From: Patescibacteria group bacterium
Lineage (GTDB): Bacteria > Patescibacteriota > Microgenomatia > UBA12405
DNA length: 64,000 nucleotides
Assembly (NCBI GenBank): GCA_013387215.1
Contig: WARW01000002.1
Coordinates: 3,659-67,658 of the forward strand
Direction: 5' to 3'
Below, piece after piece: positions 8,277 to 29,166 of the stretch (the first letter of the stretch is position 1; each line of letters opens with the position of its first letter). Both the position numbers and the translations under genes were made by a program. The notes under the pieces were generated by a model. It worked only from the letters and a program-made list of their open reading frames with translations. It was not told the origin of the DNA and ran no database searches.

Positions 8277-10311
8277 TTTTGATTTCTTTGTTAATCTGGT
8301 TAATATAGTCTTTAGCTTGAGTATTTTGTGGATTAATTTTTAGGGCAGCATTGAAGTTTTTTAGAGCATTTGAATAATCTTTTTGTTCAAGCTCAATCGC
8401 CCCTAAAGCAAAATAAGCATGGTCGTAATTAGACTTTAAACTGATAGCTTTCTCAAAATATGGAACAGCTTCATTTGAAAGTTTGGCGGCATCCAGAAAT
8501 TGGCCAATTAAATAATATGATTTGGCATCAGTGGGAGCCAGGACGGTGACTTTGGTTAAAGAATTTATGGATTCTTTGAAATATTTAGTGTCGATAGAGG
8601 AAAGATAGTAATACATTTGAGCGCGTTCTTTCCAAAGATTGGTGTTGGCAGGAGAAATATGAACGGCGATGTTGGAATAATTAATGGCCGAATCAATGTA
8701 GTTTCCAGATTTTAATTCATCTTTATTGGAGACAGAAATAATGGCCATTTTAGAAGCTAAAAGCGAGGCCTGGCTGAAATATACCGGTTCGTTTTGGCGA
8801 AAATTCAGTGTATTTTGAATTAATTTGTAGGCAAGCTCATAGTCTTCTTTGGCGTCTGCGGATTGAGATTGGGCATAGGAAATGTCGGCTAAATAATAGA
8901 ATAGAGTTTTTTGAAGTATTAAAATTCCAAAAATAATAATAAAGAAATAGGAGACTTGAGTTAAAAGACGATACCGGGAAATAAAACCTGTCTTTAAGGA
9001 ATTTTTTTCTTTTGGAAGTTTGGGGGTGATGGCCAAAATTGGCAAAAGAAAAAAGAAGATTGAAACCATAACGACCGTAAAACCGGCAATATTGGTAATT
9101 AAAATCGAAAGGTAAGCCGCAAAAACAGCTAAACTTTCGGCAGAATTGGTTTTATCGGTCCAAATTTCCTTAAGCAGGTTAAAAATAACAAAAAGAATGA
9201 CTAGTAGATAAGCAACGAAACCAACAGTGCCAGTGGTGGCAAGATAATTTAGATATTCATTGTGGGCTTTGTTGTAGAGAAAATCCCATTCTGAAGTGAG
9301 GTTGTGTTCAACTGGGCGGGTCCAATAATAAGTGTAGGCAAAAGTTTCAGTGCCAGTGCCAAAGAAAGGAAATTTTTTCCAAAGTTCCAAAGTGCCTTTC
9401 CAAACTATTTTTCGGATATCTTCGGAAGGGGTAATATTTAAAGTTGGACCAGAAACGGCAACTGGTTGGGCTTTGGGCGGGAATATTCGGTCTTTGATGG
9501 GATTATTAAACAAAACTGAAATAAGAGTAATGATAATAAAAAGAGGAATAATGGGTTTTAAATTTGATTTGAGAGATTTGTCTTTGAAAGATTTGAAAAG
9601 ATATAAAACAAAAAAAACAAAAAGAGAAATGATGGCGGCAATAATGCCGGATTTTGATTTAGTAAAAAGAAGACAAAGATAAAAACTGACCGATGCAGAG
9701 GCATAAAGAGCAGCGAGAATATTTTTTTTATTTTTAAAATTAACTAAGAATAAATCAAGGGAAAAAGGCAAAAGAATACACAGGTAAGCAGCTAGCCAAT
9801 TTGGTTGGCCAAGAGTCGAAAAGACACGAGACTGGACATCTTGAACCCACATGTTTTTATCGATGCCAAAATGTTCAGCAATACCAAAGCCGCTAATTAA
9901 AAATCCGGAAAATAAAAATAAATTAATTAAGTGATTTTTGAATTTATCATCAAGATAGACCACTAAAATAAAATACAAAAGAACATAGGAAATAACCGAC
10001 AAAAGACCGCCATTGAGACGGGAGTAATAACCAAAAATCGAAGTGTGAGGATCAACGGAAATAAAAGTAGAAATTGTTTGAGAAATTAAAAACAATAAAA
10101 GCGGAATGTCTAGAATTGTTCTTTTAAATAAGGAAACGCGGCCGCGAAAATAATTAATCAAATGGAGAGAAAGGAGAATAGTGGTGAGTCCATAAACAAA
10201 ATACATTTTGGGCAATTCAAAAAGTTCAGAATTGAAAGAGGTGAAGATTAGCGGGGTGAAGAAAAACAAGGCTAAAAAACAGAGACGAATGACATTAGTA
10301 ATTGATTTCAT
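8266..10311 (-). CDS. O-antigen-ligase-like (Wzy_C) polytopic membrane protein with C-terminal TPR repeats
   Basis: 681 aa. About 12 TM segments in the N-terminal 450 aa, followed by TPR-like repeats (AYFALGAIELEQKDYSNALKNFNAALKINPQN). This architecture is common in CPR and other bacteria. Confidence 0.55.
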   Translation of the reverse strand: MKSITNVIRLCFLALFFFTPLIFTSFNSELFELPKMYFVYGLTTILLSLHLINYFRGRVSLFKRTILDIPLLLFLISQTISTFISVDPHTSIFGYYSRLNGGLLSVISYVLLYFILVVYLDDKFKNHLINLFLFSGFLISGFGIAEHFGIDKNMWVQDVQSRVFSTLGQPNWLAAYLCILLPFSLDLFLVNFKNKKNILAALYASASVSFYLCLLFTKSKSGIIAAIISLFVFFVLYLFKSFKDKSLKSNLKPIIPLFIIITLISVLFNNPIKDRIFPPKAQPVAVSGPTLNITPSEDIRKIVWKGTLELWKKFPFFGTGTETFAYTYYWTRPVEHNLTSEWDFLYNKAHNEYLNYLATTGTVGFVAYLLVILFVIFNLLKEIWTDKTNSAESLAVFAAYLSILITNIAGFTVVMVSIFFFLLPILAITPKLPKEKNSLKTGFISRYRLLTQVSYFFIIIFGILILQKTLFYYLADISYAQSQSADAKEDYELAYKLIQNTLNFRQNEPVYFSQASLLASKMAIISVSNKDELKSGNYIDSAINYSNIAVHISPANTNLWKERAQMYYYLSSIDTKYFKESINSLTKVTVLAPTDAKSYYLIGQFLDAAKLSNEAVPYFEKAISLKSNYDHAYFALGAIELEQKDYSNALKNFNAALKINPQNTQAKDYINQINKEIKTKN

Positions 10312-16720: not shown

Positions 16721-18967
16721 TTATCCTTGAGTTTTTTCTGGTTCTGGCGGTGCCGGCGGAGTGGAATTTTCTGAAGGTGATGGATAAAAATTTTGTTTTC
16801 TTTTGCCCCATCTTTCTTGAGAGATGTGAACCAATTTAGATCGTTGTTGATTTTTGCAAGCCAAAGGAGGCAGAGTGGCAGCATAGAATGGTTGAGTGGT
16901 TTCGGAATCAATAGAGAGTTTGCAGACGATTTGGTATTTACCAATTTTAATTAAATCTTCAGGAGGGAATTGGGGTCCGAATTCTTTAGCTAAAATAAAG
17001 GCATCTTGGTTGCCGACAACGAAAGACATAATGGAACCAACGTTGCCCAAAATAGCGTCTTGAATAGTGCGGTCAAGCTGGGACATGTATTGGTTGGCAA
17101 CAATCAAGTTAAGTTTGAATTTGCGGGCTTCAGAAAGAATTTTAATGAAGGCATCAGTGGCAAAGTTTTGGAATTCGTCAACGTATAAATAAAAATCAGA
17201 ACGGTCTTCGGCTGCCTGGAAAACCCGGTTCATAGCCGATAACTGGATTTGTGTAATCAACATAGCACCAAGCAAAGCAGAATTATCTTCACCAAGCCTT
17301 CCAGTGGAAAGATCAGCAATAAGAATTTTTTTCTGATCCATGATTTCCTGGATATTAATTTTAGATTTAGCATGAGCCACTGTGTTTCTGATATTGGTAG
17401 AGGAAATGAATTGACCAACTTTGTTTAAGATTGGGGAAACAGATTCGTTTTGAAATTTTGGATCCATTCTGGCAAACTCATTAAACCAGAAATTTCTTAA
17501 GGTTTGATTTTGAAGCTGGCTGACAACTTTTTCCCGATAATTTTTGTTGGTTAATATTTCCACGATATGGGTTAAGTCAGAGTTGGGAGTATTAACTAAA
17601 GTTAAAACTGTATTTCGTAAAATGTGTTCAAGCCGTGGACCCCAAGAAATATTGCCGTAAAGTTTTTTGAAAATAGAAATAACACCAGAAGCAATTAATT
17701 CTTTTTGAGATTCATTTTTAGCTTCCAAAACGTTTAAAGGATAAACATAATCAGGATCGGCAGGGTTGAAATAGCAGCAGTCATTAATACGATTGGAAGG
17801 AACATAATCAAGAATAGTATTGCATAAATCGCCGTGGGGATCGATAACAGCCACACCACGGCCTTTTCTAATATCATCAATCGCCATGTTGGCGATTAAA
17901 GTGGTTTTACCAGTACCGGATTTACCGATAATGTATGTGTGGCGGCGGCGATCTTCGCCTTCTTTAATACCAAAAATACAGTCTTTGTTGCGGTATTCAG
18001 TTTTAGCAAAAAAAGTAATTTTATTTTTTTCTTCAGGTGTTAAATTATCAGCAACTGGAAGATTTTCTGGCGGATCGGCATAAAGTTTTTTACCCCAAGC
18101 AATGTTTGGGAGTTTGGTCATTTGACCTGGAAAGTGCCAAACAGCAGAGAGTTCTTCAGTATTAAAGATTTGACCTTTGAGACTGGTATCGAAATTACGA
18201 TTAAGAATAGCTTTGAGAAGTTTTTTTCTTTTTAAAAATCCTGGAGTAAAAGATTTGATAAAATTGCCTCGAGGGTTGGTGTAGGCACCAAAAGAAGAGG
18301 AAACAGAAGCAATTAAACCTGGATTGTTGCTTAAAAGATTGGCTTGAGTGTAAAGACCGGGGAATTGAATTTTTTGTTCAAAAATGGCTTTGTCGGGATG
18401 AGCAGTACGAATATTTCTTTCCTTATCAACCAAAATTCCATTTTGAATAGTGCTGATAATTGAGCTTTGCCAATTTTTGGGAGCACCGCTTAGAAGAATT
18501 TGAAATAAGAAAAAGTCATTGGAATTGTTAGATCGAGAAAGGGGAGCTAGAACAGAAACCATTGGGTCGGTATCTTTAAAATCTTTGGCAGTTTTAATTG
18601 GGTAAGTATATGAACGAGCCAGACCAAGCTGAGTGAAAGAAATAGTGTTAAGTTTCTCGTCTGAGGCATGTTCAAGTAAATAATCTTTAGTGTCTTTGAG
18701 AACGGCAGTAGGGTATTGAGCGAGAATTTGGGAATGTAAAAATTCACGATTATCAGAAAGTGCAGCAATATAGAAATGTATTTGACCATTTAAAAGAACA
18801 ATTTCCAAGGAAACAATGGTCTTTTTTTTGCCAGCTAGTTTTTCCCAGAATGACAAATTGGAAATTTGGGTGAAATTAGACAGGAGGGCGGACATGGATT
18901 CAAAAGTATATTCATTAGTCTGAGGTAAACGGATTTCAAATATAGATAATTTTGCAGCGTCGGCCAT
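16721..18967 (-). CDS. soluble AAA-like ATPase of the TraG/TraD/VirD4 - HerA/FtsK superfamily (type IV coupling-protein-like, DUF87-like)
   Basis: 748 aa. Walker A IIGKSGTGKTT followed by VIDPHGD (characteristic of TrwB/VirD4/TraG-type and DUF87 ATPases). Walker B LYVDEFQNF. No N-terminal TM helices. About 330-aa N-terminal domain of unknown function. Confidence 0.55.
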   Translation of the reverse strand: MADAAKLSIFEIRLPQTNEYTFESMSALLSNFTQISNLSFWEKLAGKKKTIVSLEIVLLNGQIHFYIAALSDNREFLHSQILAQYPTAVLKDTKDYLLEHASDEKLNTISFTQLGLARSYTYPIKTAKDFKDTDPMVSVLAPLSRSNNSNDFFLFQILLSGAPKNWQSSIISTIQNGILVDKERNIRTAHPDKAIFEQKIQFPGLYTQANLLSNNPGLIASVSSSFGAYTNPRGNFIKSFTPGFLKRKKLLKAILNRNFDTSLKGQIFNTEELSAVWHFPGQMTKLPNIAWGKKLYADPPENLPVADNLTPEEKNKITFFAKTEYRNKDCIFGIKEGEDRRRHTYIIGKSGTGKTTLIANMAIDDIRKGRGVAVIDPHGDLCNTILDYVPSNRINDCCYFNPADPDYVYPLNVLEAKNESQKELIASGVISIFKKLYGNISWGPRLEHILRNTVLTLVNTPNSDLTHIVEILTNKNYREKVVSQLQNQTLRNFWFNEFARMDPKFQNESVSPILNKVGQFISSTNIRNTVAHAKSKINIQEIMDQKKILIADLSTGRLGEDNSALLGAMLITQIQLSAMNRVFQAAEDRSDFYLYVDEFQNFATDAFIKILSEARKFKLNLIVANQYMSQLDRTIQDAILGNVGSIMSFVVGNQDAFILAKEFGPQFPPEDLIKIGKYQIVCKLSIDSETTQPFYAATLPPLACKNQQRSKLVHISQERWGKRKQNFYPSPSENSTPPAPPEPEKTQG

Positions 18968-19162
18968 GAGAGTATTTTAACAATAAATTACACAGAATGA
19001 TTAAGTAAAGATGATGTTCCTAGATAATTGAATAATAAAATTTCGGTGCTATTATTGGGTTAAATAAAATCTAATTACTAAAGATAAAAGCTATTTTAAA
19101 GTGATTTAGATGAACCTTAAAAACTCGCAAAATAATTGAACCGAAGGGAGGTCGTGTTTTTT

Positions 19163-19258
19163 ATGTGTAGAAATTGCAGTGTTTATTCACGGGTAGTTGC
19201 AAGCAAATCTAGTTTGAGGCCGGGAAGACAACGCAGTCCAATAACCAATAAAAAGTAA
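19163..19258 (+). CDS. possible 31-aa basic micro-ORF (MCRNCSVYSRVVASKSSLRPGRQRSPITNKK)
   Basis: GGGAGG at 19145-19150, 12 nt upstream of the ATG. Not in the ORF track (<60 aa). Speculative. Confidence 0.15.
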   Translation: MCRNCSVYSRVVASKSSLRPGRQRSPITNKK

Positions 19259-19282
19259 TTTAGGTGAAGGAGTGTATTTTGA

Positions 19283-19480
19283 ATGTGTCAAAAGAAATAT
19301 TTTGAGAAGAGACTTTTGATGTTATGTCAAAAAGAAGCAGACGGCATATTGTCTGGAGGAGATGAGGTTGAGCTAGAGAATCTGAAAACTAAGTATCCGG
19401 AAAGGATAGGACACATCTTAGGAAAAGGCAGTCCATTGATTCAGTTTAAAAATGAACTTGTTTTAGTCTCAGAAGAATAA
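19283..19480 (+). CDS. hypothetical small protein (65 aa)
   Basis: Good RBS (GAAGGAG, 10 nt before the ATG). MCQKKYFEKRLLMLCQKEADG... No motif. Confidence 0.3.
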   Translation: MCQKKYFEKRLLMLCQKEADGILSGGDEVELENLKTKYPERIGHILGKGSPLIQFKNELVLVSEE

Positions 19481-19588
19481 AGTTCTTTATATATAAATTG
19501 ATTGGTGAAAGGGTGGCTTTGAGTCACTCTTTCTTTTTTTTGGCGATTATTTTGTGAGTTTTGTTTATTTTCTCAAAGATAGGTACGG

Positions 19589-19695
19589 CTTATAATATTG
19601 ACTTTTGGATATATAAATGCTATAATTTCTTACTTAATTATCAAGCATTAGCTTTAGCGCTTTTTGATTGAAGTTAAGGAACTTTAAAAACCAGG
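19589..19695 (+). repeat. 107-bp perfect direct repeat, copy 1, containing a consensus sigma70-type promoter
   Basis: Identical to 20208..20314. TTGACT at 19598-19603, 17-nt spacer, TATAAT at 19621-19626. The remaining ~63 nt is the first part of the 5' leader. Confidence 0.85.
19598..19626 (+). promoter_or_regulatory. sigma70-like promoter (TTGACT-N17-TATAAT), copy 1
   Basis: Near-perfect -35/-10 hexamers with optimal 17-nt spacing. Confidence 0.55.
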
Positions 19696-19778
19696 GAATA
19701 TAATTTGTGTCGAAAATTGGGAATAATTTGTTTATCCCTAGCTTTCGGTACAAACCGAAAATAATATAAAAAGGATGA

Positions 19779-20126
19779 GTGATTATTGTGAAAGAGTTTA
19801 TTAAAAGTATTCCGAGTTATGTTTGGACAGCGTTGGTATCAATCTATTTAGTAGAATTCTACATTTACAGCCCAATGAAATTCTTCAATCTGCTTTTAGC
19901 AGCTGTTGCTTTCAGTGCTGTGGTGGTGGCAATTCTCAATTTAAGAAAGAAAATTATCCCTTTAGTACAATTAGTTTTGGTGGTCATTTTTATCGCTTTA
20001 ATAACGATAAATAATTTTCATCAAACAATTTCTTGTCTTGCCGGGGAAGTTCTTTTAATTTCTTTTTCTATAACTTTTATTGGTATCTATCTCAAATCTA
20101 TTAGTTTTATTAAATCCAATAATTGA
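19779..20126 (+). CDS. small hydrophobic membrane protein (115 aa, ~3 TM)
   Basis: GTG start per the ORF track (alternative GTG at 19788). Predicted TM helices (YVWTALVSIYLVEFYIY, LLLAAVAFSAVVVAIL, LVQLVLVVIFIALITI...). Downstream of repeat copy 1. Confidence 0.4.
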   Translation: MIIVKEFIKSIPSYVWTALVSIYLVEFYIYSPMKFFNLLLAAVAFSAVVVAILNLRKKIIPLVQLVLVVIFIALITINNFHQTISCLAGEVLLISFSITFIGIYLKSISFIKSNN

Positions 20127-20207
20127 GAGTTTCATTAGAAGCTCTCTTTTCCTCTTTTTATTTTATCTTCCCTGGCTCTTTCTTTTTAAATTATATTATT
20201 TATATAT

Positions 20208-20314
20208 CTTATAATATTGACTTTTGGATATATAAATGCTATAATTTCTTACTTAATTATCAAGCATTAGCTTTAGCGCTTTTTGATTGAAGTTAAGGAA
20301 CTTTAAAAACCAGG
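20208..20314 (+). repeat. 107-bp perfect direct repeat, copy 2 (promoter + leader)
   Basis: Identical to 19589..19695. -35 at 20217-20222, -10 at 20240-20245. Confidence 0.85.
20217..20245 (+). promoter_or_regulatory. sigma70-like promoter (TTGACT-N17-TATAAT), copy 2
   Basis: Same as copy 1. Confidence 0.55.
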
Positions 20315-20421
20315 AGAGAGAACATTGATTATGTCGATGAGGGGTTTTTTGGACCTTTGATCGACATAATTAATGTCAAAAGATAAAAAAATAAAATATA
20401 CGAAAGGTAAAGGTGTTTTGT

Positions 20422-20823
20422 ATGGAAAATTTGAGAACAGCGGTTTTATTTGTAGTGGGAGTGATAATTGTGTTTGGTAGTTGGATACTTAAGAGTTGGA
20501 ATAACAGCGACATTTGGTCGGATACTGCAAAGTATTTACTAATTGAAGTTGTGTTCCTGGCTGTTATTGTATTCGTAGCACTTCTACAAAATATTAAATT
20601 TAATGGTAATTTTCGGAATATGCCTTTAGTAGTGATGCTTTTTGTGGCTTGCCTTTTTAGATTTCACAATGTTTCTATTTTAATAATTATTAATTTGGCA
20701 ATTTATATTGTCGGACTGATGTTGTTAGCTAGAAAATTGAGATTATCGATAAAGAAGATAAGCCTAACATCAACTGCTCAAAGAGTAGTTATACAAAATT
20801 ATCGTAAGAGGGGAAGAGTTTAA
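20422..20823 (+). CDS. small hydrophobic membrane protein (133 aa, ~4 TM)
   Basis: ATG at 20422 preceded by AAAGGTAAAGGTG. TM helices (AVLFVVGVIIVFGSWIL, LLIEVVFLAVIVFVALL, LVVMLFVACLF, ILIIINLAIYIVGLMLLA). Basic C-terminal tail. Downstream of repeat copy 2. Confidence 0.45.
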   Translation: MENLRTAVLFVVGVIIVFGSWILKSWNNSDIWSDTAKYLLIEVVFLAVIVFVALLQNIKFNGNFRNMPLVVMLFVACLFRFHNVSILIIINLAIYIVGLMLLARKLRLSIKKISLTSTAQRVVIQNYRKRGRV

Positions 20824-21034
20824 CTCTTTCTCTCCTTTTTTCTCTTTTCTTTTTTTATTTTATTTCATCTTTTTTCTTCTTTCCTGGTTTTTCTTTTTTT
20901 TAATCCACTTTTTTCTTCTTTGATTTAGTTTTTCATGATATAATCCTTAGATTATTTATTCTTAAAATTTTTGGTATCTATAATCCTGGGTAAATCATAC
21001 CCTTTACCAAAAGTATTAATAAGGAAATTTTAAA

Positions 21035-21952
21035 ATGGCAGAAAAAAAGAAAGTCATAACAAAAACCGTCAACCGTAGCGGCAAATCTATGGTTAAAAAA
21101 GCATTAGTGGTAAAAGCTAAACAACAAAGCAATATCACTGCGGAAAATATTAAAAAGCTTAACGAAAAGATCAAAGCAGACAAAGACGTGGCTGCAAAAG
21201 CTTTGGAAAAAGCAAATGAGACTGTTGAAGTGAAAAAGGGTGAAGAAGTTAAACCAGATAAAAAATATAATTTAACTGTTGGTTTAAAAGATTTATTAGC
21301 AGCCGGTTGCCATTTAGGCCACAAAGTTTCTAAGACTCATCCAAAAGCCAAGGAAAATATTTATACCCAAAAAGATGGAATTGAAGTCATGGATTTAATT
21401 AAAACCATGGATGCTTTGGATAAAGCCTGCAACTTCATTTACAACAATAAAAGAAACGGCAAACAAATCGTTTTAGTTGGAACCAAAAGACAAGCCCGAG
21501 AAGTTGTCCGAAGAGTAGCAATGGATGCTGGCGTTCCATATATCACTGATAGATGGTTAGGCGGCACTATTACCAACTGGGAACAAATTAAAAAGAACAT
21601 CAAGAAACTTGTCGAACTTAAAGAAGGTATCGAAAAAGGTAAATTCATCGAATCAACCAAAAAAGAGTTATCACAAATGAATAAAGAAATCGTCAGATTG
21701 GAAAAAATCGTTGGCGGTTTGACTAGCCTTGAAAAAATGTTTGATATTTTGTTTGTTGTGGATGCTGGTTTTGAAAAAACTGCTATCAAAGAAGCAAAAA
21801 TCCGACATGTAAAAACTATTGCTATCAGCGATACTGACAGCAATCCTTTCAGAGTTAACTTTGCAATTCCTGCAAATGATGACAGTGTTAAAAGCATTAG
21901 CTTGATTGTTGAAGAAATCGGTAAAGCTATAAAAGCTGCTGGCGTGAAATAA
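21035..21952 (+). CDS. rpsB: 30S ribosomal protein S2 with an ~78-aa Lys/Ala-rich N-terminal extension
   Basis: Core from ~residue 80 (LLAAGCHLGHKVSKTHPK, VLVGTKRQAREVV, RWLGGTITNW, FVVDAGFEKTAIKEAK) aligns to S2. The N-terminal 78 aa (MAEKKKVITKTVNRSGKS...KKYN) has no S2 counterpart. Confidence 0.85.
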   Translation: MAEKKKVITKTVNRSGKSMVKKALVVKAKQQSNITAENIKKLNEKIKADKDVAAKALEKANETVEVKKGEEVKPDKKYNLTVGLKDLLAAGCHLGHKVSKTHPKAKENIYTQKDGIEVMDLIKTMDALDKACNFIYNNKRNGKQIVLVGTKRQAREVVRRVAMDAGVPYITDRWLGGTITNWEQIKKNIKKLVELKEGIEKGKFIESTKKELSQMNKEIVRLEKIVGGLTSLEKMFDILFVVDAGFEKTAIKEAKIRHVKTIAISDTDSNPFRVNFAIPANDDSVKSISLIVEEIGKAIKAAGVK

Positions 21953-21974: not shown

Positions 21975-22433
21975 ATGGATCAAAAACAAATAATTGACTT
22001 AGTCAAAAAAATTCGAGCTGAGATGGGTCTTGGCATTATGGAAATTAAATCCGCTTTGGAAGAAGCAGATGGCGATGAAAAAAGAGCCAAAGAAATTTTA
22101 AAAGAAAAAGGTTTTAAAAAAGCTGAATCAAAAGCAGAAAGAGAAACTCATCAAGGCAGAGTGGCTACTTACACTCATTCTACCGGTAAAATCGGTGTAA
22201 TGTTTGAACTTTTGTGTGAAACTGATTTCGTGGCTAAGCATGAAGATTTTATTGCTGTCACTAAGGATATTTGTCTTCAAATTGCAGCTATGAATCCAGA
22301 AACTGTTGAAGATTTAATGAAACAAGAATTTGTTAAAGATCCAAGCAAAACCATTGAGGAAATGATTAAAGCTTTGAGCCACAAGTTTGGTGAAAATGTC
22401 AAAATCGGCAAAATGGCTAGATTTGAAATCTAA
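21975..22433 (+). CDS. tsf: elongation factor Ts (short form)
   Basis: UBA-like N-terminus (LVKKIRAEMGLGIMEIKSALEEADGD), the TDFVAK motif, and the conserved position after rpsB. Confidence 0.85.
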   Translation: MDQKQIIDLVKKIRAEMGLGIMEIKSALEEADGDEKRAKEILKEKGFKKAESKAERETHQGRVATYTHSTGKIGVMFELLCETDFVAKHEDFIAVTKDICLQIAAMNPETVEDLMKQEFVKDPSKTIEEMIKALSHKFGENVKIGKMARFEI

Positions 22434-22439
22434 AAAGAA

Positions 22440-23528
22440 TTGAATCTTTTAAAAGCCCTTCGGATAAAACCGAGGGGCTTTTTAGTTGCGGTATACTTTA
22501 TTCTAATGGATTTTTCAGCGTTTCAAAAAATTTTAATTAGAAATATTTTGAAAAAATATTTAGAAAACAAAGCCCGAATTAAGGGTGAAGTTTTTCGATG
22601 TAATGCATTGGAAGGAGAGTCGGCTTATGATATTTCTATAAATTCGGACATGACAGTGTCGTGTAATGCCCAAGATTATAATGGCAGCGGCCATATTGGC
22701 GATTTGAATAAAAGCAGTTTGAAGGAAATATTTGAAGGCAAAATAGTAAATGATTTTAGAAAGAAACTAGATGAAGGAAAACTGCCATTGATTATTTGTG
22801 CCAGATGCCCGGAACTTGTATCAGCTAAAAAAAATAAGATAAAAAATAAAAAAAATACGGTGCCAAGTGAAGGCATAATGATAGAAAATACGGTTGCCTG
22901 CGATATGATGTGCAAGTCTTGCGAAAGAGAAACGCTTTTGGGCTGCAGAAAAAAAATCAGCTTGAGTTTGAATGACTTGGAAAAGATTGCTAAAGAGGTT
23001 TTAGAAAATAAAATTAAATCGGTTTGTTTTTTTAATTTAGGGGAACCTTTTTTATCAAAAAATATTTATCAAGAGCTAGAGATTCTAAAAAAACATAATA
23101 AAAAGCTTCATATTATTGTGTCGACTAATGGATTGCATTTAGATACTGATGAAAAAAGAAAGGCAATAAAATATATAAATCATATCGCTTTTTCAATTGA
23201 TGGAGTGAATAATAAAATTCTAAGAAAATACCAAACCAACGGCAATTTTGAAACATCGTATGGAAACATGAAAGCTTTGGTTGATTACCGAAATAAAAAT
23301 AATTTAGGCGGGGTAATTGAATGGAAATATGTTTTATTTAATTGGAATGATAAAAAAGTCTATATCGATCAGGCAATAAAACTAGCTAAGGAAGCAGGGG
23401 TAAATAAGATTACTTTTTGGCCAACAGGGAATCCTTTGTGGGGAATTTCCTGGCGCTATTATGTTAAGAGTTATTTTAAAAAGTTTGGGTTAAAAAACAG
23501 CAAGGGTGTAATTGAAGTGAATTTATAG
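22440..23528 (+). CDS. radical SAM domain protein with an N-terminal Cys-rich region (unknown substrate)
   Basis: CDMMCKSC = CxxxCxxC radical-SAM cluster motif. GEPFL (GGEP-like SAM-binding motif). IIVSTNG. Extra N-terminal cysteines (C..C...CxxC). Occupies the position normally held by pyrH between tsf and frr. The start may be an internal Met. Confidence 0.55.
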   Translation: MNLLKALRIKPRGFLVAVYFILMDFSAFQKILIRNILKKYLENKARIKGEVFRCNALEGESAYDISINSDMTVSCNAQDYNGSGHIGDLNKSSLKEIFEGKIVNDFRKKLDEGKLPLIICARCPELVSAKKNKIKNKKNTVPSEGIMIENTVACDMMCKSCERETLLGCRKKISLSLNDLEKIAKEVLENKIKSVCFFNLGEPFLSKNIYQELEILKKHNKKLHIIVSTNGLHLDTDEKRKAIKYINHIAFSIDGVNNKILRKYQTNGNFETSYGNMKALVDYRNKNNLGGVIEWKYVLFNWNDKKVYIDQAIKLAKEAGVNKITFWPTGNPLWGISWRYYVKSYFKKFGLKNSKGVIEVNL

Positions 23529-25373: not shown

Positions 25374-27953
25374 TTGGTCGAATATTTGAGGAAAATGTCA
25401 AAATTTAGTTTATCTTTAGGTAAAAAGTTAGTATATAAATTGTATAAAAAGAGAGATGGATTGGTCCAAATCCCTTTAATAATTGGATTAGTGGTAATGG
25501 CTGTGGCTTTGCCGTTAGTAACAAAATTGACTCAACAGAACACTGAAAATAGAAGTAAAGCGTATGATGGATGTTCCGGTGCACCGCAACAAGCTTGTCA
25601 GTATATGAGTAACTGCACATGGAATGGAAGTAGTTGCACTTCCATAAAAACTTGTGCTTCTTGCAATGGAAATACGAGGTGTAGTGGAGATGTGGTTACT
25701 GTTTGTAATTGTGATGGTAATTGGGTTGGTAATACTCCCTGTGCCAGCGGTACTCATTGTGATAGTTCAGGTACTCATTGTGTAGCCTCAGCTCCAGCAG
25801 CAACTGCAACCCCAAGGCCTAGTGATTGCCGTACTTCAGGATGTCCATCAGGACAGACTTGTACAAGTGATGTCGGAATTTGGGACTGTGTTCCTAATCC
25901 AACTGCAACACCAAGACCTGCAAGCACTGGTGATTGTAGGACAAGCGGTTGTGCTAGGGGAACATGTACAAATATAAATTATATGGCTGGCCGAGAAGGA
26001 TCTCCGGCTGTTTATGTTTGCGTTACACCAACTCCCGTTCCTCCAACAGCAACTCCAAGACCTTATAATTGTCCTTCTAGGTGTAGTAGCAATAAAGGTT
26101 GTGCTACTGTAACTTATCAAAGTACTGATTCTGCCTGTAATAACGTTATTAGTGGAACACAAAACTACACTCCAAATTGTTCCTGCGGTCCTGTCTCTGG
26201 TGGTGATAATTCTATTTGTCAGCAAACCGGTTGTAAAAAACCAAATGGTGAGTCGTGTTCAACAGGTTCTGATTGTGCAAGTGCCATATGTTTTTCTGGT
26301 AAGTGTTCAGCTGCTGATTGTAGCGGTGGTTATGGAAACAAGCCTAATTCTTGCTCTTGTACTTATAGTTTCGAATGTGATTCAGGTAATTGTGTTAGCG
26401 GAAAATGTGTTGCTTCTGGTTCTTCAAATCCAACTTCAATACCAACTCAAGCTACCCAACACTATACGGTTTATAAAAATGGTTCTTGCCAGACTTCAGC
26501 TAATGCATATGTCAGTTTGACAGCATGTAATAATGATCCGCCAGTAAATAATTGTTACTCAAGCATGGCGGCTTGTAATAGTGCACATCCAGCAACTCCA
26601 ACCCAACACTATACGGTTTATAAAAATGGTTCATGCCAAACTTCTATAAATGAATACACAAGTTTGACAGCATGTAATAATGATCCGCCAGTAAATAATT
26701 GTTACTCAAGCATGGCGGCTTGTAATAGTGCACATCCAGTTGCTTCAGTACCAACATATACATGTGAAACAAACGGCGATCATTGTTATACCACCCAAGT
26801 TAATGGAAGCATTCCAACTTCCTGTTTAACCTACACTAATACATATAAACAATTGTATGGAAGCGGTTCTGGTACTTGTGCTAGTGGACTTTGCTGTAAG
26901 ACACCTGTTGCTTGTACATGTTCAAGCGGCTACTCAACTTCAGTAACTAGCTGTCCATCAGGATCCACTTTAGATACGACAAATTCTCTAAGTTGTGGAT
27001 CTGGAGTTAAATGCGGTAAGTGTATCACTGCAACTTCTACTACTGATCCTGAATGTGTTGGTCATGCTAACAGCACAGGATTTTGTTCAGGAACAACTTA
27101 TTTAAGATGCGAAGCAGGAAAAGTAGCTTACACTTTGGCTAATGCTGCAGCTTGTCCAGTAACTCCAACTGATGCTTGTAATAATTATGGAAGCAGTATT
27201 CCAACTTGTATGAGCCAGTCCAATTGTACTTGGAATGGAACTGCCTGTGTAACTAAGCCAGTGTGCGACAAACTATGCGGCAGCAATAAATATGGCGACA
27301 TTGTTTGTAGTGGAAATGCAGTTAAGATTTGTCAATGTGATGGAACTTGGAGCAGCACAGTTCCATGTGCCAGCGGATTAGTTTGTGACAGTACGGCAAC
27401 TAAATGTGTAGCTCCGGCAACTGCTGACCCTGGTATCACTTTTTCTAATTTTAATGTAGTGGCTAATAGTTCAACATCCGTGAGAGTGACTGGCAGTATG
27501 ACAGCAACAAATGGCGGATTATTACAAATGTATTGGTTTAAAGTAGACGGTAATGACATTCAAAAGTTAACTTTGCAAAACCCTGATGGAAATGGCGGTT
27601 TTGTGGGAAGAACTTCATATGATTTCACCAATATTTCCGTAAATAATTTAAGTACTGGAAATCATAATGTTGCAGTTTGTGGAACTGTAAAATCTACTGA
27701 TGGCAGTAAGGAAGTGAATGCTTGTACTGATGTAAAAGCTGTAAGTTTAGTAAATCCTCCAACTGCAGCACCAGGAAGATGCGATGTTTGTTCAACATTT
27801 GCTACATCAAGAAATAATGGAGATTTTGATTGTAATGGAACTTCGAACTTAACAGACTTCTCAGTATGGAAAGATCTGTATTTTAATTGTTCAGGAGTAG
27901 TTTCAACTAATGATTTTTCCATATGGAAGGAAAAATATCTTATTAATAAATAA
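25374..27953 (+). CDS. large Cys-rich modular secreted/surface protein with PT-rich linkers, internal tandem repeats, a C-terminal beta-sandwich-like domain and a dockerin-like tail
   Basis: 859 aa. N-terminal TM/signal segment (IPLIIGLVVMAVALPLV). Two ~65-aa Cys-rich modules (CxYMSNCTWNGSxCT...C.CDG.W....PCASG..CDS....CVA) near the N- and C-terminus. PTATPRP linkers. 2 x 49-aa tandem repeat. C-terminal GDFDCNGTSNLTDFSVWK ... DFSIWK resembles paired dockerin Ca-binding loops and helices. Confidence 0.55.
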   Translation: MVEYLRKMSKFSLSLGKKLVYKLYKKRDGLVQIPLIIGLVVMAVALPLVTKLTQQNTENRSKAYDGCSGAPQQACQYMSNCTWNGSSCTSIKTCASCNGNTRCSGDVVTVCNCDGNWVGNTPCASGTHCDSSGTHCVASAPAATATPRPSDCRTSGCPSGQTCTSDVGIWDCVPNPTATPRPASTGDCRTSGCARGTCTNINYMAGREGSPAVYVCVTPTPVPPTATPRPYNCPSRCSSNKGCATVTYQSTDSACNNVISGTQNYTPNCSCGPVSGGDNSICQQTGCKKPNGESCSTGSDCASAICFSGKCSAADCSGGYGNKPNSCSCTYSFECDSGNCVSGKCVASGSSNPTSIPTQATQHYTVYKNGSCQTSANAYVSLTACNNDPPVNNCYSSMAACNSAHPATPTQHYTVYKNGSCQTSINEYTSLTACNNDPPVNNCYSSMAACNSAHPVASVPTYTCETNGDHCYTTQVNGSIPTSCLTYTNTYKQLYGSGSGTCASGLCCKTPVACTCSSGYSTSVTSCPSGSTLDTTNSLSCGSGVKCGKCITATSTTDPECVGHANSTGFCSGTTYLRCEAGKVAYTLANAAACPVTPTDACNNYGSSIPTCMSQSNCTWNGTACVTKPVCDKLCGSNKYGDIVCSGNAVKICQCDGTWSSTVPCASGLVCDSTATKCVAPATADPGITFSNFNVVANSSTSVRVTGSMTATNGGLLQMYWFKVDGNDIQKLTLQNPDGNGGFVGRTSYDFTNISVNNLSTGNHNVAVCGTVKSTDGSKEVNACTDVKAVSLVNPPTAAPGRCDVCSTFATSRNNGDFDCNGTSNLTDFSVWKDLYFNCSGVVSTNDFSIWKEKYLINK
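26457..26750 (+). repeat. 2 x 147-bp tandem DNA repeat inside the CDS (encodes QHYTVYKNGSCQTS...MAACNSAHP modules)
   Basis: Copy 1 starts ~26457, copy 2 at 26604. The 3' ~77 nt of each copy is identical. Confidence 0.8.
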
Positions 27954-27957
27954 TTAA

Positions 27958-29166
27958 ATGTTCAACAGCAATAACATGAAAAAAATAAATTACACCGCCG
28001 TATTCTGGGTACTGACAAGTATGGCACTAATAGGTGGTTTAGCATTGGCAAGCCAGAGCCAAGATACGAGAAGGGGAGCGGCATTTTCAGCAGGCAGGTT
28101 AATGCTTTTACCAAACGATAAAATCAGCTTTACTGTTGGTCAATCCCAAAACGTTCAATTATGGGTAAATTCAGGGAATGCATCGGCTAATGTTGATGCT
28201 ATTAGAACCAATATCTGTTTTAATAAGAACTTTCTTAATTTAAATGATCCGGTTGTGGAAAATAATATTAAACAAGATCCAGCTTTTGATACTGTGATCG
28301 CAACTTTAAAAGATGGAAACACTCAATGTTTAGATTTATCAATATTATCAGTATCTAAGAAAGCATCAAAAAATGGATTATTTAAGATTGCTGATATCAC
28401 TTTTAAGGGTGTAGGAACAGGATCTGGTCCAATTGATATTATTAAAGATAAAACTGAAATTTCAGGTGACAATGCCGGTAGTTTAGATAAAACAATTAGT
28501 ATTGATTCAGTTACCGGAACTACTTTTGAAGTTACTCCTCAAACTTCAGTAGCAGTACCAACTACACCGCCACCAGCCGGAACACCACTTTTAAGTTTTA
28601 GATTTGCTTATGCGGGCGTGAAGGCAAATGCAGAGTGTTCTATTGGAGCAAAATGGCCAGTAAAGATTATGGTTAGGGGAAATGGAAAAATTTCAAAAGC
28701 TTATACTGCAATTCCAACTTTGGATGGAACAAATTCTCGAGGAGAGGCTGTTTATAAAGTTACAAATTTGGCTTTAACTGATTTCGATCAAAAAAGTGGT
28801 TTGGCTGTTTTTTTGAAAGGACCAGAACACGCTCAGATGAAATATGGAGTTAATGCACAGGCTAGTAACTACACAAAAGCAGATGGAGAAATAACTATTA
28901 CCGCTGATGCATCTACAACTCCAATTTTGGATTTTACTAATTATCCAATAATGCCAGGTGATGTTCGAGGTTCAGCAAGCGGTGGCCAAGATGGAATAAT
29001 AAATGTAGTCGATTTTAGTTATATTAAACAAGCAGTGTCGGCCAGATCTACTGTTCCAGCTGGTGGTGGTTTGGATGCTGACTTAAACGGAGATTGTATG
29101 GCAAATACCGGCGATGTTCAGTTATTTAAAAATTCCCTTATTGAGAAGCAGGATCAATTGTATTAA
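27958..29166 (+). CDS. secreted protein with an N-terminal cohesin-like domain and a C-terminal dockerin-like module
   Basis: Signal/TM (VFWVLTSMALIGGLALA). Cohesin-like hallmarks (TVGQSQNVQLWVNS..., ...GLFKIADITFKGVGTGSGPIDII). C-terminus QDGIINVVDFSYIKQ ... DLNGDCMANTGDVQLFKN fits the D-x-N-x-D-G-x-x-N-x-x-D Ca-loop pattern twice. Confidence 0.45.
   Translation: MFNSNNMKKINYTAVFWVLTSMALIGGLALASQSQDTRRGAAFSAGRLMLLPNDKISFTVGQSQNVQLWVNSGNASANVDAIRTNICFNKNFLNLNDPVVENNIKQDPAFDTVIATLKDGNTQCLDLSILSVSKKASKNGLFKIADITFKGVGTGSGPIDIIKDKTEISGDNAGSLDKTISIDSVTGTTFEVTPQTSVAVPTTPPPAGTPLLSFRFAYAGVKANAECSIGAKWPVKIMVRGNGKISKAYTAIPTLDGTNSRGEAVYKVTNLALTDFDQKSGLAVFLKGPEHAQMKYGVNAQASNYTKADGEITITADASTTPILDFTNYPIMPGDVRGSASGGQDGIINVVDFSYIKQAVSARSTVPAGGGLDADLNGDCMANTGDVQLFKNSLIEKQDQLY

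What the first reader, a model, noticed from the sequence alone, without database searches (positions are those of the whole stretch)
19589..20826. Duplicated cassette: identical 107-bp consensus-promoter + leader driving two diverged small multi-TM proteins, each followed by a CT-rich tract
A perfect 107-bp direct repeat (19589-19695 and 20208-20314, 619 bp apart) contains TTGACT-N17-TATAAT, one of the best sigma70-type promoters in the window, plus ~63 nt of shared 5' leader. Each copy sits ~150-170 nt upstream of a small hydrophobic protein (115 and 133 aa, 3-4 TM, unrelated at the sequence level). Each unit ends in a polypyrimidine (CT-rich) tract (20140-20200, 20824-20940, also 19520-19545). 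Perfect conservation of the non-coding part while the CDSs have diverged suggests selection or gene conversion acting on the promoter/leader RNA (a cis-regulatory leader, riboswitch-like or attenuator), or a very recent duplication with cargo swap. Copy-specific leader hairpins follow (tttcggtacaaaccgaaa at ~19743; tatgtcgat...atcgacata at 20329-20370). The small membrane proteins could be holin/toxin-like or immunity-like. I cannot identify them.
Basis: seen in the sequence. Interest (0 to 1): 0.6.

Follow-up and report, generated by a model that had tools for sequence, protein, structure and literature searches.

The report
Duplicated promoter-leader module, two orphan membrane genes
Two neighbouring one-gene units in an uncultivated ultra-small (Shapirobacteria, CPR) bacterium start with the same 107-base promoter-plus-leader piece but encode two unrelated, database-unique small membrane proteins; it is a real case of promoter/leader reuse in a variable chromosomal slot, with no sign of a riboswitch.

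Summary
A perfect 107-bp direct repeat (19589-19695, 20208-20314) carries the two best sigma70-like promoters in the window, plus the first ~63 nt of a 5' leader. Each copy heads a self-contained unit: promoter, 150-170-nt structured leader, Shine-Dalgarno site, a small 4-helix membrane ORF (112 and 133 aa), a terminator-like hairpin and a pyrimidine tail. The units lie between a conserved TrwB/VirD4-like ATPase gene and rpsB in a Candidatus Shapirobacteria chromosome. In relatives this gap ranges from 156 bp to 5.2 kb and holds different small genes. One other species (L010) has a homologue of the module and of the whole copy-1 leader, down to the start codon, at about 73% identity, the same as coding genes. 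It drives a protein with no detectable similarity to ORF1. Selection therefore tolerates about 27% divergence, so the 100% identity reflects a recent recombinational copy, not a need for identity. No Rfam family, attenuator terminator or conserved upstream ORF was found. My reading is a strong promoter plus a 5'-terminal stabilising hairpin, reused for different cargo; this is inferred, not shown. Both proteins match nothing but themselves in billions of sequences, and their function is unknown. Interest is modest.

The parts
19507..19533 (+). Terminator-like hairpin plus T run after the upstream 65-aa ORF (19283-19480). It marks the left edge of unit 1.
   Evidence: 12 pairs, followed by TTTTTTTT; ORF
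19589..19695 (+). Copy 1 of the 107-bp module. It starts with CTTATAAT, then -35 TTGACT (19598-19603), a 17-nt spacer with TG (19618-19619) and -10 TATAAT (19621-19626). The inferred transcription start is near 19632. Hairpin P1 spans 19633-19678, and an A-rich linker ends in CCAGG (19691-19695).
   Evidence: The transcription start is inferred from the -10 position, not measured.
19704..19754 (+). Long hairpin P2 of the copy-1 leader (12 + 5 + 4 pairs). It is conserved in L010 and absent from copy 2.
   Evidence: Three one-sided changes between the window and L010 keep the pairing. It is the minimum-energy fold in both species (-16.7 and -30.8 kcal/mol).
19788..20126 (+). ORF1, 112 aa from GTG 19788 (115 aa if from GTG 19779). 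It has four predicted hydrophobic helices. AAGGAUGAG (19771-19779) lies upstream as a Shine-Dalgarno-like site.
   Evidence: No homologue but itself.
20125..20146 (+). Terminator-like hairpin of unit 1, overlapping the stop codon.
   Evidence: 9 pairs, loop of 4, T-rich tail
20147..20207 (+). Pyrimidine tail of unit 1 (TTTTTATTTTATCTTCCCTGGCTCTTTCTTTTT...). It is homologous to the tail of the L010 unit.
   Evidence: alignment; z 4.6 against shuffles, 1/400
20208..20314 (+). Copy 2 of the 107-bp module: -35 at 20217-20222, -10 at 20240-20245, P1 at 20252-20297, ending in CCAGG (20310-20314).
   Evidence: covariance-model score 81.7 bits
20322..20376 (+). Copy-2-specific long hairpin (P2'). It sits where P2 sits in copy 1 but is unrelated in sequence.
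   Evidence: pair I8, 24-nt arms, 83% complementary; leader z -5.3; no similarity to the copy-1 or L010 leader
20422..20823 (+). ORF2, 133 aa. It has four predicted hydrophobic helices and a strongly basic C-terminal tail. AAAGGUG lies upstream as a Shine-Dalgarno-like site.
   Evidence: No homologue but itself.
20808..20834 (+). Terminator-like hairpin of unit 2. The stop codon lies in its loop.
   Evidence: 12 pairs
20835..20925 (+). Pyrimidine tail of unit 2, containing CCTGGTTTTTC. It is weakly homologous to the L010 tail. The rpsB promoter and leader follow at 20927-21034.
   Evidence: z 3.2, 0/400; rpsB leader conserved across loci

Best explanation
The 107-bp repeat is the 5' control module of a small autonomous expression unit. 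The unit consists of a near-consensus extended -10 promoter, a structured 150-170-nt leader, a Shine-Dalgarno site, a small 4-helix membrane ORF, an intrinsic terminator and a pyrimidine tail.

Two such units lie in tandem in a variable slot between a conserved TrwB/VirD4-like ATPase gene and rpsB, on the core chromosome of a Candidatus Shapirobacteria (CPR) bacterium. The module is old: a homologous copy with the whole copy-1 leader exists in another species.

Its 100% identity within this genome comes from a recent non-reciprocal recombination event. That event was either gene conversion between two tandem units or capture of the promoter-leader piece in front of a second gene. It does not come from selection for identity.

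Functionally, I infer that the module gives strong, probably unregulated transcription. I also infer that a hairpin starting about 1 nt from the RNA 5' end protects the mRNA. Two different lineage-specific membrane proteins would then be made independently of each other and of rpsB.

Shown by computation: the repeat, the promoter match, the ORFs, the terminator-like sites, the homology to L010, and the variable slot. Inferred: the transcription starts, the strength and constitutive nature of expression, the stabilising role of P1, and the recombination route.
For: 1. Anatomy. The repeat is perfect. The two copies are the only sites in the window with 11 of 12 promoter matches, a 17-nt spacer and TG. 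Each unit has its own terminator-like hairpin. Each has an ORF longer than chance with the best codon score in its own frame.

2. Homology in another species. L010:9176-9393 matches window 19589-19790 (nhmmer E 1.5e-51; 73% over 186 nt). The match starts exactly at CTTATAAT, the 5' edge of the repeat, and runs to the start codon. Coding genes of the same two genomes are 71-78% identical at the DNA level, so the leader is as constrained as coding sequence.

3. Structure. P1 keeps three pairs through changes on both sides. P2 keeps three pairs through one-sided changes.

4. Identity reflects recency. The L010 module differs from the window's at about 27% of positions. Copy 2 shares nothing with copy 1 or L010 after CCAGG (z 0.5 and -0.2).

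5. Cargo differs under conserved flanks. The unit-1 3' leader (z 18) and tail (z 4.6) are homologous to L010, but the coding sequences are not (z 1.5). The L010 protein belongs to one family with those of L002 and L013. The window ORFs do not, although the window is no further from L010 than L013 is.

6. Variable slot. The gap between the ATPase gene and rpsB is 156 bp to 5.2 kb in 19 related loci, with different contents.

7. Core chromosomal setting. The ORFs scanned between 1.2 and 53.7 kb gave only housekeeping-type Pfam domains or no match, and none matched a recombinase, transposase or phage family.

8. Independent assembly. A Logan contig from another run reproduces 18933-20052 at 100% identity.

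9. Literature. A 5'-terminal stem-loop as an mRNA stabiliser is established in E. coli (Emory et al. 1992, listed in the references of PMC3997798). Identical upstream pieces before unrelated genes are a described class (PMC3575422).
Against: - There are no expression data. Transcription starts and terminators are pattern matches only.
- The leader is known from only two species, so covariation support is thin.
- P1 alone does not fold better than shuffled sequence (z -0.66).
- Gene conversion, promoter capture, and duplication followed by cargo replacement cannot be told apart with the data in hand.
- Conversion between copies that had already diverged would be inefficient.
- The Logan contig runs through copy 1 without the break that a second copy should cause in a k=31 graph (my knowledge of the Logan method). 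That fits low coverage but also fits a one-unit strain.
- The rest of this genome could not be searched for further copies.
- The function of the proteins is unknown.
Confidence: 0.55

Rival explanations
1. Recent tandem duplication of the whole unit, then cargo swap. The interior of one copy, from just after CCAGG to the tail, would have been replaced by homologous recombination with a divergent allele or foreign cassette taken up from another strain. The 107 bp would then be the untouched remnant of the duplication.
For: The boundary is sharp: 100% identity and then none. Both units keep the tail motif shared with L010. Cargo differs under conserved flanks between species. dprA lies in the window, which fits natural transformation (the link between dprA and transformation is my knowledge).
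Against: No donor allele of ORF2 or of its hairpin was found anywhere. Tail 1 and tail 2 are not significantly alike once composition is allowed for (z 0.5). The 3' flank is only about 60-90 nt of low-complexity sequence, which is poor substrate for recombination.
Confidence: 0.2
2. The shared leader would be a regulatory RNA (riboswitch-like or attenuator) kept identical by selection so that both genes answer to one signal.
For: The leader is as conserved as coding sequence between two species, with pair-preserving changes. The single-stranded linker GGAACUUUAAAAACCAGGGAA is about 84% conserved (my count).
Against: No Rfam family reaches threshold. There is no terminator or antiterminator in either leader. 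The short upstream ORF is not conserved (my reading). The most conserved part, P2, is missing from copy 2 and replaced by an unrelated hairpin. L010 shows that selection tolerates about 27% divergence, so selection cannot explain 107 of 107. A covariance model of P1 plus linker finds no further instance in 650 kb of related loci.
Confidence: 0.1
3. Assembly artefact. The MAG contig would join two strain variants of a one-unit locus, or mis-resolve a 107-bp repeat, so the tandem arrangement would not exist in any cell.
For: The contig is from a metagenome-assembled genome. 107 bp is shorter than typical reads. The Logan contig passes through copy 1 without a break.
Against: Both ends of the 512-bp unit-1 interior connect to the repeat. 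The junction from tail 1 into copy 2 (20188-20230) would not exist if the two units were alleles of one locus, because each allele would join to the rpsB flank instead; this is my reasoning from the sequence. The Logan data confirm the junctions on both sides of copy 1. That sample has only patchy coverage of this genome, since tsf and ORF2 were not found, so short stubs could have been trimmed.
Confidence: 0.07
4. Cassette bounded by a recombination site. CCAGG at the end of the module and CCTGG in each tail would be inverted sites for a site-specific recombinase that inverts or exchanges the ORF segment, as in phase or antigenic variation.
For: The repeat ends exactly at CCAGG. Each tail, and the L010 tail, carries the complementary (C)CTGG in a similar context. 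CCWGG occurs 6 times in 19691-20989 against about 1.4 expected from 69 sites in 64 kb (a post-hoc count).
Against: No scanned ORF between 1.2 and 53.7 kb matched a recombinase family. The sites are only 5-8 bp long. Leader-tail complementarity is not better than shuffled tails (28/300, 35/300 and 5/300). No inverted variant has been seen.
Confidence: 0.05

Closest known systems
Putative mobile promoters / promoter reuse (Matus-Garcia, Nijveen and van Passel 2012; PMC3575422)
   Same: A highly similar upstream piece, here 100% over 107 nt, stands in front of two genes whose coding sequences are not paralogous. It is not tied to a known insertion sequence or RNA family. That survey also reported pairs identical over 100 bp and left open whether selection or recency explains them.
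   Different: Here the two copies are tandem neighbours inside repeated whole units with similar terminators and tails. The piece includes the -10 box and 63 nt of transcribed leader, and a homologous copy exists in another species. The repeat only partly overlaps the survey's -150 to -50 window.
Phage 'morons' (single genes with their own promoter and terminator, inserted between conserved genes; my knowledge, Hendrix and colleagues)
   Same: Each unit is one small gene flanked by its own strong promoter and a factor-independent terminator. It sits between two conserved genes that are adjacent in relatives (gap 156 bp in L008). Small membrane proteins are frequent moron cargo (my knowledge).
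   Different: The setting is the core chromosome, not a prophage. No phage genes lie nearby, and there is no match in phage collections.
Mycoplasma variable lipoprotein loci (vsp, vlp, vsa; my knowledge)
   Same: Several neighbouring genes share a nearly identical 5' non-coding region while their coding parts differ. Recombination in the shared part shuffles expression.
   Different: In those loci the shared part extends into a conserved signal peptide, the proteins are repetitive lipoproteins, and a dedicated recombinase or phase-variable tract is present. None of these features is seen here.
5'-terminal stem-loop mRNA stabilisers (ompA and papA in E. coli; 5' stabilisers in Bacillus; references listed in PMC3997798)
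   Same: P1 is predicted to start about 1 nt after the inferred transcription start, and a second long hairpin follows. This is the arrangement that protects mRNAs from 5'-end-dependent decay.
   Different: The transcription start and any effect on half-life are untested, and nothing is known about RNA decay enzymes in this organism.

Membership tests
Putative mobile promoter (PMP) pair | At least 80% identity over at least 50 nt between the upstream regions of two genes in one genome | tested here: met
   100% over 107 nt; criterion as given in PMC3575422
Putative mobile promoter (PMP) pair | The match lies within -150 to -50 of the start codon | tested here: inconclusive
   The repeat spans -199 to -93 relative to GTG 19788 and -214 to -108 relative to ATG 20422. 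The overlap with that interval is therefore 58 nt for ORF1 but only 43 nt for ORF2 (coordinates).
Putative mobile promoter (PMP) pair | The adjacent coding sequences are not paralogous | tested here: met
   BLASTP E 0.62; protein shuffle z 1.6; DNA shuffle z 1.9
Known cis-regulatory RNA or riboswitch (Rfam) | Match to a curated covariance model at its gathering score | tested here: not met
   Only five tRNAs pass in the window. The best permissive hit in the region is Srn266 at 30.4 bits against a gathering score of 63.
Riboswitch or attenuator (as a mechanism) | An expression platform: a terminator/antiterminator pair, a sequestered ribosome-binding site, or a conserved leader peptide | tested here: not met
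   No terminator-like site lies between the promoters and the start codons. The Shine-Dalgarno regions are not in stable stems in the consensus fold. The 7-codon TTG ORF in the window leader is 2 codons long in L010 (my reading).
Riboswitch or attenuator (as a mechanism) | A structured aptamer conserved with covariation across many lineages | tested here: inconclusive
   Only two species carry the leader. Three pairs change on both sides. There is no further instance in 650 kb of related loci or in JGI metagenomes for the linker motif.
Phage moron | Own promoter and own terminator around a single gene | tested here: met
   Pattern matches only
Phage moron | Located in a phage or prophage genome | tested here: not met
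   The neighbours are topA, dprA, rpsB, tsf, frr and rseP. No significant PHROG match (only listing at E 0.089), and no phage or IMG/VR match.
Miniature mobile repeat (MITE, REP or Correia-like) | Many dispersed copies with terminal inverted repeats or target duplications | tested here: not met
   Two copies in 64 kb. None in GTDB representative genomes for a 32-mer. No terminal inverted repeat of the 107-mer was reported. The rest of this genome could not be searched.
Integron-type gene cassette | A neighbouring integrase and attC-like recombination sites | tested here: not met
   No scanned ORF between 1.2 and 53.7 kb matched an integrase or recombinase family. ORFs beyond 53.8 kb were not scanned.
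Holin, type I toxin, or defence/immunity protein families | Sequence membership in a described family; for type I toxins, fewer than about 60 aa with one helix and an antisense RNA | tested here: not met
   No significant hit in Pfam, PHROGs, NCBIfam or PADLOC; the only listing for the window ORFs is ORF1 against an unknown-function PHROG at E 0.089. The proteins are 112 and 133 aa with four helices.
Small multidrug resistance (EmrE-like) transporters (considered from memory: about 110 aa, 4 helices, a membrane glutamate) | Match to the Pfam family model | tested here: not met
   No Pfam family at E up to 0.01 for either ORF

The most novel reading that the evidence does not exclude
The slot between the TrwB-like ATPase gene and rpsB would be a dedicated expression platform in Shapirobacteria. 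A conserved promoter, structured leader and pyrimidine tail would serve as recombination arms. Through them, small membrane-protein cargo would be exchanged between strains and occasionally stacked in tandem. This would amount to integrase-free cassette switching of envelope proteins in an episymbiotic CPR bacterium, and the leader would be an undescribed cis-acting RNA.
Probability: 0.15. Interest if true: 0.55.

Novelty: new member of a known kind. Interest (0 to 1): 0.3.

Why it matters
If the reading is right, this is a clean natural example of promoter and 5' UTR reuse. One control module is conserved between species as well as coding genes are, and it is placed in front of unrelated cargo in a core-genome hot spot. 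It also flags two strongly promoted, database-unique small membrane proteins in a CPR bacterium. In this group, envelope proteins probably matter for attachment to hosts, and almost nothing is known about transcription signals or mRNA leaders. The 107-bp module could serve as a candidate strong promoter and leader for genetic tools in Patescibacteria. The finding does not open a new class of mechanism.

Tried and rejected
- **Further copies of the module.** I found none in the window, none in GTDB representative genomes for a 32-mer, and none in IMG/VR. JGI metagenomes gave only the L010 organism plus two chance hits in GC-rich DNA. There was no phage or plasmid match.
- **Wider leader homologues.** nhmmer and a covariance model were run over 36 related loci and found only the three known instances.
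- **Homologues of the proteins.** The word-indexed search found only the proteins themselves for ORF2, ORF1 and the L010 protein. Full HMMER of ORF1 against 1.84 billion representatives also found only itself.
- **Family libraries.** Pfam, PHROGs, NCBIfam and PADLOC gave nothing significant.
- **Distant paralogy of ORF1 and ORF2, or membership in the L010/L002/L013 family.** Not supported.
- **Structure prediction.** AlphaFold2 without an alignment gave all-helical models with pTM 0.31 and 0.34, too poor for a fold search, so none was run.
- **Pairing between the CCAGG linker and the CCTGG tail.** It looked striking by eye but is not better than shuffled tails.
- **An alternative hairpin** between the 3' arm of P1 and the linker, seen in the copy-2 fold. 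It is not conserved in L010 by my inspection, so I dropped it.
- **The 21-nt inverted repeat around the copy-2 -35 box** (pairs I9 and I10). My rough estimate puts it within chance for pure A/T sequence.
- **Strain variants of the L010 unit.** The cluster members are only alternative start calls of the same gene.
- **Exact look-ups of window proteins.** Most are not in the position index.
Full report
**1.

Window 19589-19695 and 20208-20314 are identical over 107 bp, 619 bp apart. Each half of the repeat occurs exactly twice in the window with up to three mismatches allowed, against zero expected. A low-stringency BLAST finds no partial copy elsewhere.

The repeat contains TTGACT, a 17-nt spacer with TG, and TATAAT. 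Only six sites in the window, on both strands, match the consensus at 11 of 12 positions. These two are the only ones that combine a 17-nt spacer with the TG extension.

Two ORFs follow. They are not similar to each other: BLASTP E 0.62, shuffle z 1.6.

**2. Anatomy of the two units**

Each repeat heads a compact unit with the same layout.
- Transcription should start near 19632 and 20251. This is inferred from the -10 box.
- The first transcribed bases form an imperfect hairpin, P1 (19633-19678 and 20252-20297).
- An A-rich linker follows and ends in CCAGG, which is the last base of the repeat.
- After that the copies differ completely. Copy 1 has a long hairpin P2 (19704-19754). It is the minimum-energy fold at -16.7 kcal/mol. 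Copy 2 has an unrelated long hairpin at the same place (20322-20376, pair I8), and its leader folds far better than shuffles (z -5.3).
- An A-rich spacer and a Shine-Dalgarno-like site precede ORF1 and ORF2. ORF1 most likely runs from GTG 19788 (112 aa). ORF2 runs from ATG 20422 (133 aa).
- Each ORF ends in a terminator-like hairpin with a T run (20125-20146, 20808-20834). A third lies before unit 1 at 19507-19533. The region has five such sites against 1.2 expected.
- The CT-rich tracts of the finding are these T runs plus a further pyrimidine tail.

**3. The ORFs look like real genes**

The stop-free runs are longer than in dinucleotide shuffles of each unit (3/2000 and 1/2000 shuffles; 0/2000 for the L010 unit). 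With codon frequencies from 40 long ORFs of the window, both score best in their own frame. Their scores are below typical genes: 0.17 and 0.04 bits per codon against 0.31 +/- 0.07. That fits young, fast-evolving or foreign genes.

A hydropathy scan counts three to four membrane-spanning segments. From the sequences I read four, with both ends inside by the positive-inside rule. AlphaFold2 without an alignment gives all-helical models of low confidence (pTM 0.31 and 0.34). I did not use them for fold searches.

**4. Where the window comes from, and the neighbourhood**

The contig is an NCBI record of 68,061 bp. The closest rpsB relatives are MAGs of Candidatus Shapirobacteria, in the Patescibacteria/CPR group.

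The surrounding genes are core functions. They include def, a Wzy-like membrane protein, mreB, a penicillin-binding protein, dprA and topA. A TrwB/VirD4-like ATPase (16721-18967, minus strand) comes next, then the two units. After them come rpsB, a short tsf, a radical SAM gene, frr and rseP. The ORFs I scanned between 1.2 and 53.7 kb gave only housekeeping-type Pfam domains or no match. None matched a recombinase, transposase or phage family.

**5. The slot is variable**

The ATPase gene and rpsB are neighbours in about 20 related loci, but the gap between them varies widely.
- It is 156-284 bp with no gene in L008, L007, L011, L019, L012 and L009.
- It is 360-500 bp with one small soluble ORF in L015, L001 and L027.
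- It is 0.9-1.8 kb in L002, L016, L003, L004, L013, L010, L036 and L020.
- It is 3.2 kb in L025 and 5.2 kb in L014.
- It is 2,067 bp in the window.

The contents differ. L013 has two acyl-carrier-protein-like genes and L014 has two AAA_14/DUF4143 ATPases. Small multi-helix membrane ORFs lie just upstream of rpsB in L002, L013, L010 and L016, and L014 has one further upstream.

**6. The module and the whole copy-1 leader exist in one other species**

L010:9176-9393 aligns with window 19589-19790 (73% over 186 nt, E 1e-19; nhmmer E 1.5e-51; alignment).
- The homology begins exactly at CTTATAAT, the 5' edge of the 107-bp repeat.
- It runs through the promoter, P1, the linker, P2 and the ribosome-binding region to the start codon.
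- By my count, the linker and P2 are about 84-85% identical, P1 about 66%, and the promoter spacer about half.
- P1 keeps three pairs through changes on both sides. P2 keeps three pairs through one-sided changes.
- Coding genes of the two genomes are 71-78% identical at the DNA level, so the leader is as constrained as coding sequence.
- The pyrimidine tails of both window units also resemble the L010 tail (z 4.6 and 3.2; alignment).
- The first 14 bases, CTTATAATATTGAC, also begin a promoter about 53 nt from the ATPase start codon in L001 and L002.

Beyond that the leader was not found. nhmmer and a covariance model of P1 plus linker found nothing more in 650 kb of related loci. It is also absent from GTDB representatives for a 32-mer and from IMG/VR. 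For the linker motif, JGI metagenomes gave only the L010 organism and two chance hits.

**7. The cargo is not conserved**

ORF2, ORF1 and the L010 protein each find only themselves among 5.8 billion clustered proteins. ORF1 finds only itself in a full HMMER scan of 1.84 billion representatives. Pfam, PHROGs, NCBIfam and PADLOC give no significant match.

The L010 protein is related to the positional counterparts in L002 and L013: z 6.7 and 3.9, and profile E 0.003 as the best non-self hit. L002 against L013 gives E 1e-8.

The window ORFs match neither this family nor each other. The window is no further from L010 than L013 is: rpsB 75% against 77%, and the ATPase 86% against 85%. So under a conserved leader and tail, the coding part of unit 1 has been replaced or has diverged much faster than in the sister lineages (coding sequence z 1.5, 3' leader z 18).

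**8. Why the 107 bp are identical**

Selection on this module tolerates about 27% divergence, as the comparison with L010 shows. Selection therefore cannot account for 107 of 107 identical bases next to sequence with no similarity at all (z 0.5 for the 3' leaders). The identity must be recent.

I cannot separate three routes:
- gene conversion between two older tandem units;
- capture of the promoter-leader piece by a gene that was already there;
- a recent duplication of the whole unit followed by replacement of one interior.

All three are non-reciprocal recombination. The first two are my best explanation and the third is listed as the main rival.

**9. What the module probably does**

I found no evidence for a sensing element.
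- No Rfam family reaches threshold.
- No terminator-like site lies within the leaders.
- The short upstream ORF is not conserved (my reading).
- The part shared by the two copies is only P1 and the linker.
- P1 alone does not fold better than shuffles (z -0.66).

What fits best is a near-consensus promoter and a hairpin starting about one base from the RNA 5' end, followed by a second long hairpin of any sequence. This is a strong constitutive promoter with a 5'-terminal stabiliser. Such stem-loops are known to prolong mRNA life in E. coli (Emory et al. 1992, listed in the references of PMC3997798). This is inference and nothing here measures expression.

**10. Is it an assembly artefact?**

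This is unlikely but not excluded. Both ends of the 512-bp unit-1 interior connect to the repeat. The junction from tail 1 into copy 2 would not exist if the two units were alleles of a one-unit locus.

A Logan contig from run SRR19769811 reproduces 18933-20052 at 100% identity. This confirms the two junctions of copy 1 independently. That contig runs through the repeat without a break. In a k=31 graph (my knowledge of the Logan method) a second copy should cause a break. Coverage of this genome in that run is patchy, since tsf and ORF2 were not found, so short stubs may have been trimmed. A one-unit strain is the other possibility.

**11. Leads that did not hold**

The linker (AAAAACCAGGRA) is complementary to the CCTGG core of each tail, in L010 as well. 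However, duplex energies are not better than with shuffled tails (28/300, 35/300 and 5/300).

CCWGG is locally frequent: 6 sites in 1.3 kb against about 1.4 expected. This was counted after the fact, and no recombinase gene was found.

**12. Comparison with known things, and verdict**

By the operational definition of Matus-Garcia, Nijveen and van Passel this is a 'putative mobile promoter' pair, and that survey also reported pairs identical over 100 bp (PMC3575422). It meets the identity and non-paralogy criteria. It only partly falls in their -150 to -50 interval. The units are built like phage morons but sit in a core chromosome. The shared 5' region before divergent genes recalls Mycoplasma variable-protein loci, without their recombinases or shared signal peptides (my knowledge).

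I file it as a new member of a known kind. The finding is real and tidy. The informative extra is that the leader and tail are conserved between species while the cargo is not. The leader motif is undescribed but narrowly distributed, and the proteins remain of unknown function. Interest 0.3.

Noticed in passing
window 20927-21034; L001-L020 at about 9880-10000: The rpsB promoter and 5' leader are conserved across Shapirobacteria loci: TGTGATATAAT TTCCAAGTTAATAAT ... ATCCTGGG ... CCC ... AATAAGGA, with an apparent hairpin around CCUGGG/CCC. This may be an S2 autoregulatory leader. Its -10 box and first transcribed bases resemble those of the 107-bp module (TATAATTTCTTACTTAATTAT). The BLAST hits are weak (E 0.15 and 6.5).
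   Followed up: partly
window 21035-21952: Ribosomal protein S2 carries a lysine-rich N-terminal extension of about 86 residues before the Pfam S2 domain, which starts at residue 87. The extension aligns in most relatives.
   Followed up: no
window 21975-22433: EF-Ts is only 152 aa. It has the N-terminal UBA-like part and the first 76 of 204 positions of the EF_TS domain. L010 has a 160-aa version.
   Followed up: no
window 22440-23528: A radical SAM/SPASM gene sits between tsf and frr. It is absent from the same place in L010, where tsf is followed directly by frr. This is a second small insertion into the same ribosomal gene neighbourhood.
   Followed up: partly
window 19283-19480 (also 19136-19258): A 65-aa soluble ORF with its own terminator-like hairpin lies between the ATPase gene and unit 1. 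It has no family match and recurs identically in a Logan contig. Relatives hold other small, often very basic ORFs in the same slot.
   Followed up: partly
window 20188-20208 and 20227-20247: A 21-nt inverted repeat (90% complementary) brackets the -35 box of copy 2 only. The end of tail 1 is the reverse complement of the promoter spacer (pairs I9 and I10). My rough estimate puts it within chance for A/T-only sequence. It could also be a trace of how the junction formed.
   Followed up: partly
window 19691-20989: CCWGG is locally enriched: 6 sites in 1.3 kb against 69 in 64 kb. Sites lie at the end of each 107-bp copy, in each tail and in the rpsB leader. This was counted post hoc and its meaning is unknown.
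   Followed up: partly
L013:8909-9447; L014:6301-9906; L025:7644-9635: The same slot holds different genes in other species. L013 has two tandem acyl-carrier-protein-like genes. L014 has two AAA_14/DUF4143 ATPases and a 163-aa 4-helix ORF. L025 has long ORFs with no Pfam match.
   Followed up: partly
L001:9636-9649; L002:9174-9187: CTTATAATATTGAC, the first 14 bases of the module, begins a TTGACA-N17-TATAAT/TATGAT promoter about 53 nt from the ATPase start codon. On the other strand it reads TATTATAAG. It may therefore be a back-to-back promoter core that also serves the ATPase gene.
   Followed up: no
window 25374-27953, 27958-29166, 34162-36996: Three large ORFs (859, 402 and 944 aa) have no Pfam match at the thresholds used.
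   Followed up: no
window 16721-18967: The conserved 748-aa ATPase matches TrwB_AAD_bind, DUF87 and TraG-D_C only weakly. Its L010 orthologue also carries DUF8128. It lies next to dprA and topA, not within a conjugation gene set.
   Followed up: no
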